A program made the position numbers and the translations under genes. From Ginglymostoma cirratum (lineage: Eukaryota), in assembly GCA_024137785.1 (NCBI GenBank), contig JAHRHZ010000066.1:24981069-25045068 (forward strand): a stretch of DNA of 64,000 nt, read 5' to 3'. The notes under the pieces were generated by a model. The model searched no databases and had not been told where the DNA came from. It was given only the letters and a program-made list of their open reading frames with translations. Shown here one piece after another: positions 11,964 through 14,900 of the stretch. The stretch's first letter is position 1. The number at the start of each line of letters is the position of its first letter.

Positions 11964-14900
11964 GTAAGTGAACTTGTGGTTTAAATGCTAAAAATCAAGA
12001 CTGTTCAGTACTAGCCTCCTTAGAAGGCTACATAGTGTTTTGGATGTTCTTTTGGTCTTTAGCTTTAGTTTCTGGGTGATCACTAGCCTTGATGCACTGG
12101 ACGGTTCTTCATACTTAGGGCTGTACATAACTGTACCTTAAGTCAGTTGCTTCTGTGTAGGTGCCCAAAACTAAGCTTATTCCAGTAGAAATGAAGAATC
12201 CTAATGTCAGGTTTAGCTGATGTAGTTAAATTAATTTGCACAAATGTATTACTCCATTGTCAAATGTTGGATTTAGACTATTAGAGGCCTAGTGGCTTAA
12301 CATTAAATTTTGGATTAAGTAATTAGTGATGGTTAACATGGAGTTTATTGAATTGAAGTTGAGGGACTGAGTCGATTTGAGTTTCCTGCACTGGTTTATT
12401 TGAACTAAGTGTGGAATTTGACTTGGAATCAATCCCACCCATTCACCTGTCAATTTGAAGACACCTGATCTTTCAGTTTAATAATGCATTTCTTGTACAG
12501 ATTTGGTACTTTGATCTGGATCTGGGAGACTTGATTGCTTTAATTGCAATCTTGGGGGGTAACTTTTCTAGCCTCTTACTCTTCAGGTTGAAGTGAAGAG
12601 ATGACTGTGAAATATCAGCTGCCTTGAGCAGTGATACTGAAATTCAGGCAATTCTGTTCTCCCTAATGATGGCATGAGGCTAACAATTGTCTAGTTTTGG
12701 CTAGAATTGACCCTACTGTATCCTTGGTGCAAATTTAAACTGTCCCTTCAAATAAAGGGAAGTGCCATAGCTTTGGTTTTAAAAACTACTTAGCTTGAGT
12801 TCCTGAATGTTGAGTTACTTTTGTGTATGAATGTTTGTAATTAGCACAACTGATTAAATTGTTTTTGCCAGCTGTGCCACAAATGCATTCTATGCAATGG
12901 AAAAAACTGCAGAGCCATTCAGAAACTGCAGAAAATGACCACTGCAACTCTTTGTGAAGGTTTTTAAGTCTTGTGGCCTAGAAAGGTGCTGTATACACTA
13001 GGAGATTCCCAAAGCCCCACGCCTACCTGATGTAGGTGTTCTCATAGCTGCCTTTTGCTCAGTTTCATGATTGAAGCAGATTTTTAGTCTATTACCTTGA
13101 CAGCTCCTGACCCTTCACTGGGGAATGTGGCTTTTTTGGATGAAGTTCCAATAATGACTGAATTCATTAATGCACAATGCTACACAATCCACACTCCCTT
13201 AACTATATTTTGAATTTAATAGCTTAGCTGACAGGAATTATTTCCCCTACTTAAAAACTTGCTTTGTTTCAGTTGATTCAAATTTCCCTTTCTCAAAATG
13301 TACTTAATTTTTGAAAGCAGAAATTTGGAAACTTAAACATAGCACTTCATCTAGTGAAACTCTGACTGTTTTGCGACACTTTTGAAGTGAGGGTTGAAAT
13401 CTCAAACATGGGCTACCAAAGGTTAATAAGCTTATGTCATTATCTGGAGTTTGTTTTACTGATCCAATTACTTTGTTTTTTTTTTAAAACCTGCTTTCTT
13501 TGTGTATAAGCAGATGGTGAGTTACTTTAAGTCTAGACTCTTCTGGTCCAGTTTATAAAGTACACTGCTTGTTTTGAGACCAACTTGCTTTTTCAGACTA
13601 ACTGTTCATAATTTAAACCTGAAAGGCTTGTCACTCAGTGGTGATCAGTTTTTTTTTCTTGTACATCAACTTCCAAAGTTTTGAAAAGCAGGCCAGCTCT
13701 TCTGTCTCTAATATGAAGGGTTTAGAATTGAGTCAATTTAAATAGGCTATGCAACTTGAATGTATGAAACATTACCTAACATTGTCAACTACTTTGGCTT
13801 GTAGCTTGAAAGGGGAATAGAAAAATGAACTTTTCACTGATCATGTTACCATATGTATCTTAAATTTGAGCTGACATTAAACTTGCTACATCCATCCAAT
13901 TTGACTAAAGTTTGTTGTAAATGAACTGCCTAAAGTTTCGGGCACTAATGGGACTTTCAGTTTATGAACTGGACCAGAGCCATGAGCTGGAATTTTGCAT
14001 TTGCTATGTAGTGGTGTACAGTTGGACACTTAGGATGGGAACAAGAACTAAGCAGTTGAGTTTTCCTTTGAATTGTACTAATGTCTTTCAGATCTAGGAA
14101 ACTTTCACTTTATTTGAACATGGTGTCCCACGTATTGTCAGGTACAATAGGGAAATGTGGTGGAGTCACCCCAACAAGACTCTTTTTGGAATATCTTGCA
14201 TCTGTGGAAACTAGCAATTTCTGACTATGTCCATCCTGTCTTAAGATGTTTGTGGAAATAAACCATTTTGACTAATTCTGCAGTCCCTGCAAATTGCAGG
14301 TGGGGAAACTTTAATCTGAGTGCTAGTTAAAGATGTTCCCATCCTTAGTGCTGTGTGCTCTGCATTCAGATGAATGTTAGATGTAAACCTGCTACCATTC
14401 TCATGTAATGCAGTTTTATGTAAAAGTTAGCCTTTTAGAAAGCAGTAACAAATATACAGGTACTGCATTGCTCCTGGAGGTCTTTCTGCACTTGGATTCA
14501 GAAGCTAATTATCTGTTTGACCCTAAGGTTCCTTGATCAACAAAGCTAATTCTAACTGACAAACATCTAACCTTATTGGTCTGGTAAGAAATTAAATGCT
14601 TCAAAGAATGTCCTGGTTAAACTGAGCAGGCTTGATGGCCCCTGACTTCTATTAGTTCCTTTTTAAAGGGAATCTTTAGTGACCTTTTCACCTTAACTTG
14701 ACTGTCAGTAACTCCCTTTTTGAGGAGGTTGGGGGAAGATGTTGGGAACAGACTTGAGCATTTTAGCAGTATCTATTTAGACTTGATCTTTTGGAATGAA
14801 CTTTTTTGTTTTTGACAGCTGGAAAAACACTGCAAATATTTAACATTGAAATGAAAAGCAAGATGAAGGCTCACACCATGGTGGATGATGTCACTTTCTG

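What the first reader, a model, noticed from the sequence alone, without database searches (positions are those of the whole stretch)
13455..13522. Hidden 3-nt (or 6-nt) microexon in intron 2, in the adaptor-binding beta-propeller
Seen: branch-like tactgat (~13457), a long T tract, TGC at 13492-13494 about 20 nt before the acceptor, tandem AAG-CAG acceptors, ATG, then a consensus donor G|GTGAGT at 13517. Intron 2 is phase 1, so inclusion keeps the frame: ALK-D-AGKT (3 nt) or ALK-AD-AGKT (6 nt). Established: neural microexons controlled by SRRM3/4 have a UGC near the 3' splice site and strong donors; this region of the N-terminal domain is near the clathrin-box groove. I recall fish CHC models with an ALKDA variant but cannot verify this. 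Inference: a regulated one-residue insertion that gene predictors would miss.
Basis: partly seen in the sequence, partly recalled or inferred. Interest (0 to 1): 0.72.

Follow-up and report, generated by a model that had tools for sequence, protein, structure and literature searches.

The report
Known three-base clathrin microexon, shark copy
Three bases (ATG) inside intron 2 of this shark-type clathrin heavy-chain gene have the place and splice signals of a tiny exon already described in human, mouse, chicken and zebrafish, so they likely add one aspartate beside clathrin's adaptor-binding groove in eye and probably nerve cells, although no RNA read showing inclusion was found here.

Summary
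Observation confirmed; the exon is already known. The window holds CLTC (CHC17) of a cartilaginous fish. ATG 13514-13516, between a CAG acceptor and a GTGAGT donor in phase-1 intron 2, would give ALK-D-AGKT. This matches the published 3-nt CLTC microexon HsaEX0015816 (Asp between K83 and A84, SRRM3/4-responsive): retina-restricted in human, mouse and chicken, broadly neural in zebrafish cltcb. ALK-D occurs in 49 of 295 clathrin records, ALK-AD in 0, so the 6-nt reading is unlikely. Gene predictors do not always miss it.

New here: intron 2 of the genome's CLTCL1 (CHC22) paralogue carries the same branch point/TGC/cag|ATG|gtgagtta, and CHC22-type records of turtles, a bird, frogs and teleosts carry the Asp. 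The exon therefore likely predates the CHC17/CHC22 duplication (494-451 My); I did not find this in print.

Against: the 7 RNA-type runs with coverage (tissue unknown, 6 as contigs) show skipping only. The window also holds the known 12-nt (DMYQ) and 21-nt CLTC microexons. The scan had not noted this on other DNA.

The parts
11756..11963 (+). CLTC exon 2 (LQNLG...VIALK + G), phase-1 donor G|GTAAGT
   Evidence: RNA cover and joint
13457..13463 (+). Branch-point-like TACTGAT (A at 13462, -52); TTACTGAT is shared with the paralogue
   Evidence: use as branch point is inferred
13472..13485 (+). Polypyrimidine (T) tract inside a 59-nt AG-free zone (13450-13508)
13492..13494 (+). TGC (UGC), candidate SRRM3/4 element, -22 from the exon (-21 in the paralogue)
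   Evidence: function inferred from Bonnal et al. passages
13508..13513 (+). Tandem AAG-CAG; CAG is the likely acceptor, AAG is not shared with the paralogue
13514..13516 (+). 3-nt microexon ATG; G+AT = Asp inserted after K83 (likely orthologue of HsaEX0015816)
13517..13524 (+). Donor GTGAGTTA, identical in the paralogue
14819..15087 (+). CLTC exon 3 (CT + GKTLQIF...ISAQ); single acceptor, no NAGNAG
   Evidence: RNA joint

Best explanation
The ATG at 13514-13516 is likely a 3-nt cassette microexon of clathrin heavy chain CLTC that is skipped in the RNA seen here and would, when included, put one aspartate between Lys83 and Ala84 of the N-terminal beta-propeller. Shown here: the sequence anatomy, the reading frame, the skipped mRNA, the same motif in the CLTCL1 paralogue, the Asp form in other vertebrates' protein records, and two SRRM_C-domain loci in the genome. 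Inferred from orthologues: the distant branch point and T tract leave a weak acceptor, so the exon is ignored by default; SRRM3/4 acting through the UGC at -22, with the GTGAGT donor, switch it on in photoreceptors and probably some other neurons. [quoted passage not shown] I commit to 3 nt, CAG acceptor, retina-enriched with possible wider neural inclusion.
For: Published orthologue with the same length, intron and product: passages of Ciampi et al.. Supplement rows give retina/neural/other PSI of 57.8/1.1/0.05 in human, 63.3/6.5/0.25 in mouse and 58.2/0.01/0 in chicken. Human dPSI is +2.9 to +34.7 on SRRM4 expression and 0 on MSI1. Zebrafish cltca/cltcb 3-nt exons fall 38 PSI points in srrm3-mutant eyes at 5 dpf. 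Zebrafish cltcb DreEX0022266 is listed as orthologue of HsaEX0015816. The gene is CLTC: closer to CHC1 than CHC2 records, with a PTH2-family gene 26.5 kb downstream on the opposite strand (the human CLTC-PTRH2 neighbourhood is recalled). The paralogue's intron 2 has ttactgat(-39)...tgc(-21)...cag|ATG|gtgagtta. D in 49 of 295 records, AD in 0; isoform pairs differ only by residue 84. Neither flanking exon offers an alternative splice site that yields D. Two SRRM_C matches in the genome.
Against: No inclusion junction in this species. Of 8 runs laid (8 of 16 listed), 7 had coverage and all show only the skip joint; the one informative raw-read run gave 10 skip reads and no listed insertion (listing needs 3 reads); 6 are contigs, which drop minor forms; tissues are unknown. 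0 of 4 named chondrichthyan CHC1 records carry D. A matrix trained on this gene scores the AAG acceptor (6.6) above the CAG (4.8). Only 1 TAG lies in the 200 nt downstream, so no MSI1-type enrichment. No other species' intron could be aligned at DNA level.
Confidence: 0.9

Rival explanations
1. The exon is real but in this fish it is included mostly through the upstream AAG, giving the 6-nt CAGATG (ALK-AD-AGKT), alone or as a substantial second form.
For: AAG-CAG tandem is present; the AAG site scores higher on the gene-trained matrix; 3 of the gene's acceptors are AAG; a 2-residue insert (DD) exists in 2 cyprinid records.
Against: AD in 0 of 295 records; the paralogue has ATTCAG, with no upstream AG; all published orthologues are 3 nt; CAG is the acceptor in 22 of 31 exons of this gene.
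Confidence: 0.07
2. The exon is real and 3 nt but broadly neural, or leaky in many tissues as in zebrafish cltcb, rather than retina-enriched. This concerns tissue only and overlaps with the best explanation.
For: Zebrafish cltcb: neural PSI 95.9, endocrine pancreas 72.7, other tissues 22-59. Many teleost default models include D.
Against: All 7 covered runs here show skipping as the assembled or only listed form, which argues against high leaky inclusion. Bonnal et al. report that SRRM4 response is conserved from shark to mammals while teleosts diverge (passage; not CLTC-specific).
Confidence: 0.35
3. The motif is a chance or decayed look-alike that is not spliced in this species.
For: No inclusion read. 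AG-N3-GTRAG arises in 552 of 2000 shuffles, and a 14-nt shared word between the two introns is reached in 37 of 300 shuffles.
Against: The exon letters are the ones needed for the known Asp; the same branch/TGC/acceptor/donor arrangement stands in both paralogues (full pattern in 12 and 24 of 2000 shuffles) while the rest of the two introns does not align; an unnamed assembly-derived protein 96% identical to the paralogue's exon 3 contains the D (P0093).
Confidence: 0.05

Closest known systems
CLTC 3-nt retina microexon HsaEX0015816 / MmuEX0011805 / GgaEX1065990 / DreEX0022256 / DreEX0022266 (Ciampi et al. 2022, PMC9303857; PMC12626424)
   Same: Same gene, same junction (K83/A84), 3 nt, Asp product, frame-preserving; UGC-type upstream architecture.
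   Different: Cartilaginous-fish copy; has an extra upstream AAG; inclusion, tissue pattern and SRRM dependence not shown here. I did not have the human intron sequence to align.
SRRM3/4 (eMIC)-dependent neural and retinal microexons (Bonnal et al., bioRxiv 10.1101/2024.09.17.613571, passages)
   Same: 3-27 nt, distant branch point and pyrimidine tract, weak acceptor context, UGC between branch point and AG.
   Different: The donor is only middling on this gene's own matrix; no functional test here.
Other CLTC alternative microexons: 12-nt HsaEX0015815 and 21-nt exon 31 (PMC9303857 supplement; PMC13676984 abstract)
   Same: Same gene; both have clear counterparts in this window.
   Different: Other positions (intron 14, intron 30); exon 31 is linked to striated muscle and the trimerisation region, not the terminal domain.

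Membership tests
Orthologue of CLTC microexon HsaEX0015816 | Host gene is CLTC (CHC17), not CLTCL1 | tested here: met
   Positions matching only the window versus only the paralogue: 136/84 for mouse CHC1, 172/61 for shark CHC1, 79/178 for macaw CHC2; PTH2-family gene 26.5 kb downstream
Orthologue of CLTC microexon HsaEX0015816 | Lies in the intron that splits K83/A84, 3 nt, encodes Asp in frame | tested here: met
Orthologue of CLTC microexon HsaEX0015816 | Flanking intron sequence conserved across vertebrates | tested here: inconclusive
   Only the within-genome paralogue could be compared (shared TTACTGAT, TGC, CAGATGGTGAGTTA); no other vertebrate genomes are held
Orthologue of CLTC microexon HsaEX0015816 | Included in mRNA | tested here: inconclusive
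   0 of 7 covered runs show inclusion; tissue unknown, 6 are contigs
SRRM3/4-dependent microexon | 3-27 nt, frame-preserving | tested here: met
SRRM3/4-dependent microexon | UGC between branch point and AG; distant branch point and pyrimidine tract; weak acceptor | tested here: met
   TGC -22, branch A -52, 59-nt AG-free zone; acceptor 4.8, among the 3 lowest of 30
SRRM3/4-dependent microexon | Strong 5' splice site | tested here: inconclusive
   Consensus G|GTGAGT, but 7.5 on the gene-trained matrix, above only 4 of 30 donors; no MaxEnt score available
SRRM3/4-dependent microexon | Regulator present in the genome | tested here: met
   2 SRRM_C (PF15230) matches over cut-off, contigs C95 and C99; which is SRRM3 or SRRM4 was not determined
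SRRM3/4-dependent microexon | Inclusion rises with SRRM3/4 and falls on its loss | not testable with these tools
   Shown only for the human and zebrafish orthologues
Retina-enriched microexon (RetMIC) | Retina PSI well above other tissues, including brain | not testable with these tools
   Run tissues are not given; amniote orthologues meet it, zebrafish cltcb is classed neural

The most novel reading that the evidence does not exclude
The one-residue Asp switch at the clathrin-box groove is older than the CHC17/CHC22 duplication (494-451 My): cartilaginous fish keep the same cag|ATG|gtgagtta microexon in both CLTC and CLTCL1, non-mammalian CHC22 still uses it, mammalian CHC22 may have lost it, and lamprey's ALK-E-AGKT isoform may be the pre-duplication form. 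The GLUT4-trafficking clathrin would then also have an SRRM3/4-controlled neural or retinal isoform.
Probability: 0.75. Interest if true: 0.4.

Novelty: already known. Interest (0 to 1): 0.25.

Why it matters
The added value is evolutionary. The same three-base exon and its control signals stand in both clathrin heavy-chain paralogues, which dates a single-residue change at the main adaptor-binding groove to the origin of jawed vertebrates or earlier and points to an unstudied CHC22 isoform. What the Asp does to adaptor binding appears in the passages I read only as a structural prediction, so paired CHC17/CHC22 terminal domains with and without Asp84 are a natural test.

Tried and rejected
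Run search: no RNA holder listed on record; 16 runs offered, 8 laid. X16 gave 0 reads (no test). No run showed letters between the exon 2/3 joint; contigs show presence, not absence, so this is not taken as proof of silence. Longest shared word between the two paralogous introns (14 nt) is not significant alone: 37 of 300 shuffles reach it. Synteny test for the paralogue failed: HIRA matches lie on C99, not C98 (the expected CLTCL1-HIRA neighbourhood is recalled), so its CHC22 identity rests on sequence and a weakly supported tree (0.60 for the CHC22 clade, 0.73 for CHC17). Alternative splice sites at exon 2 or exon 3 as a source of D: rejected from the sequence. Amphioxus GSGS as an older alternative form: not supported, since all 10 cluster members printed and both representatives carry it and it begins with Gly, as a donor shift would. 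The frog 10-residue insert AGSVENAPAQ has no counterpart in either shark intron 2 (best 4 of 10). No DMYQ-type exon was found in the paralogue's intron 14. Musashi-paper supplements gave only expression rows for Cltc. Earlier scan notes: nothing by sequence, three unrelated clathrin notes by words. No structure was predicted.

Full report
Host gene. The window holds exons 2 to the last of a clathrin heavy chain gene on the + strand; exon 1 lies upstream in L014. The genome has three matches to exon 2: the window (C66), a spliced paralogue (C98) and an intronless copy (C166). Against named proteins the window gene is closer to CHC1 records and the C98 gene to CHC2 records (positions matching only window/only paralogue 136/84 for mouse CHC1, 172/61 for shark CHC1, 79/178 for macaw CHC2, 73/178 for leatherback CHC2). 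A PTH2-family gene lies 26.5 kb downstream on the opposite strand, as I recall for human CLTC-PTRH2. So the window is CLTC of a cartilaginous fish and C98 is probably CLTCL1. My synteny check for the latter failed (HIRA is on C99).

Observation. The branch A is at -52, the TGC at -22, and 13450-13508 has no AG. Exon 2 ends AAA G and exon 3 starts CT, so ATG gives K-D-A and CAGATG gives K-A-D-A. In 2000 dinucleotide shuffles of the intron, AG-N3-GTRAG appears in 552, AG-A[TC]G-GTRAG in 17 and the full pattern (post hoc criteria) in 12; the full pattern occurs once in 30 introns (41,091 nt) and never antisense. A splice-site matrix from the gene's own 30 donors and 30 acceptors lists 32 microexon-like candidates; this donor scores 7.5, the CAG acceptor 4.8 and the AAG acceptor 6.6. 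Sequence statistics alone are suggestive only.

Literature. Ciampi et al. (bioRxiv 10.1101/2021.09.08.459463, passages; PMC9303857, passages; supplement rows, files 13-18 not searched) describe a retina-specific, conserved 3-nt CLTC microexon, HsaEX0015816. [quoted passage not shown] Retina/neural/other PSI: human 57.8/1.1/0.05, mouse 63.3/6.5/0.25, chicken 58.2/0.01/0. It responds to SRRM4 (dPSI 2.9-34.7 across the lines listed), weakly to SRRM3 in HEK293 (2.5) and not to MSI1. Zebrafish cltca and cltcb 3-nt exons reach 72.5 and 86.7 in 5-dpf eyes and drop 38 points in srrm3 mutants. Supplement rows of PMC12626424 tie cltcb DreEX0022266 to HsaEX0015816 and class it neural (95.9; other tissues 22-73). 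A supplement row of PMC8797185 lists the mouse event as 3 nt.

Protein records. Of 354 proteins fetched, 295 had a parsable exon 2/3 junction: 215 without insert, 49 with D, 16 GSGS (amphioxus), 2 E (lamprey), 2 DD (Sinocyclocheilus), 2 AGSVENAPAQ (frogs), 9 singletons, and none with AD. D forms include lungfish, teleosts, a bird, a rodent and a tenrec on the CHC1 side. Isoform pairs differ only by residue 84. These are mostly automated models, sampled unevenly, and not independent. 0 of 4 named chondrichthyan CHC1 records carry D.

Paralogue. Intron 2 of the C98 gene (4136 nt) contains ttactgat...tgc...cag|ATG|gtgagtta at C98:36367938-36367936 (branch A -39, TGC -21), with no upstream AAG. 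The full pattern arises in 24 of 2000 shuffles of that intron. The shared 14-mer is the top blastn hit between the two introns (E 0.12), but a word of that length is reached by 37 of 300 shuffles, so it is its content and context that count. In a FastTree of 199 distinct segments downstream of the junction, 17 of 79 tips in the CHC22 clade (support 0.60) and 18 of 63 in the CHC17 clade (0.73) carry D. CHC22-side D forms include turtles, great tit, frogs, teleosts and P0093, an unnamed assembly-derived protein 96% identical to the paralogue's exon 3. None of 12 mammalian CHC2 records printed shows D (11 without insert, 1 not parsed). PMC6548504 (passages) dates the duplication to 494-451 My. 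One origin before the duplication is the simplest reading; independent gain or old gene conversion is not excluded. Lamprey ALK-E-AGKT could be the same exon with a different middle base or a NAGNAG acceptor; I had no lamprey DNA. Searches for CLTCL1 + microexon (2 papers), CHC22 + splicing + retina, microexon + clathrin + amphioxus and microexon + shark, and term look-ups in PMC13676984 and bioRxiv 10.64898/2026.08.20.745084, showed no mention of this exon in CLTCL1. VastDB itself and subscription papers could not be searched.

RNA. 8 of 16 listed runs were laid on 11700-15850. Seven had coverage and all show the joint exon 2 to exon 3; none lists letters between. The one raw-read run with coverage (X15, about 24% read) gave 10 skip reads. 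Tissues are unknown and contigs drop minor isoforms. This shows the skipped mRNA, argues against high leaky inclusion in those samples, and says little about retina.

Mechanism. Shown: anatomy, frame, skipped default, conservation in the paralogue, two SRRM_C loci in the genome. Inferred from orthologues: SRRM3/4-dependent inclusion through the UGC in photoreceptors and perhaps other neurons. Predicted in print, not tested in what I read: Asp84 alters adaptor binding at the clathrin-box groove. The 3-nt form is strongly preferred over the 6-nt form.

Verdict. A real and well-spotted feature, but an already described vertebrate microexon. The shared exon in CLTCL1 is the only part I could not find in print. 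Interest 0.25.

Noticed in passing
L004 (G000:C98:36367938-36367936, minus strand): The CLTCL1-type paralogue has the same cag|ATG|gtgagtta microexon with TTACTGAT and TGC upstream, only about 140 nt into its intron 2.
   Followed up: yes
window 32646-32657 (+), intron 14: 12-nt exon candidate GACATGTACCAG (DMYQ), TGC at -26, donor G|GTAAAC. A woodpecker CLTC isoform (P0170) has KNFLK-DMYQ-EAKL. Likely the second CLTC retina microexon HsaEX0015815 (the match to intron 14 rests on recalled human exon coordinates). No reads were laid; no counterpart found in the paralogue.
   Followed up: partly
window 52170-52190 (+), intron 30: 21-nt exon VDEIKKK, matching the Heptranchias CLTC isoform P0158; counterpart of the alternatively spliced CLTC exon 31 (VDAIKEK in other vertebrates).
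   Followed up: partly
L003 (G000:C166:1437386-1438200 approx.): Intronless, decayed clathrin heavy-chain copy (exons 1-5, stops and frameshifts) with the skipped ALK-AGK junction; looks closer to the CLTCL1-type gene by eye.
   Followed up: partly
proteins P0082/P0084 versus P0083: Sea lamprey isoforms differ by one Glu at the same position (ALK-E-AGKT); microexon or NAGNAG not resolved.
   Followed up: no
proteins P0153, P0155, P0297, P0299, P0165, P0074, P0075, P0097, P0105: The same junction takes other inserts in other lineages: AGSVENAPAQ in two frogs, DD in Sinocyclocheilus, and Gly-starting extensions in a bird, bivalves and hemipterans. The K83/A84 loop looks like a recurrent site of splice variation.
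   Followed up: no
window about 61900-64000: Reverse-transcriptase-like reading frames of LINE type downstream of the gene, broken; ordinary repeat content.
   Followed up: no
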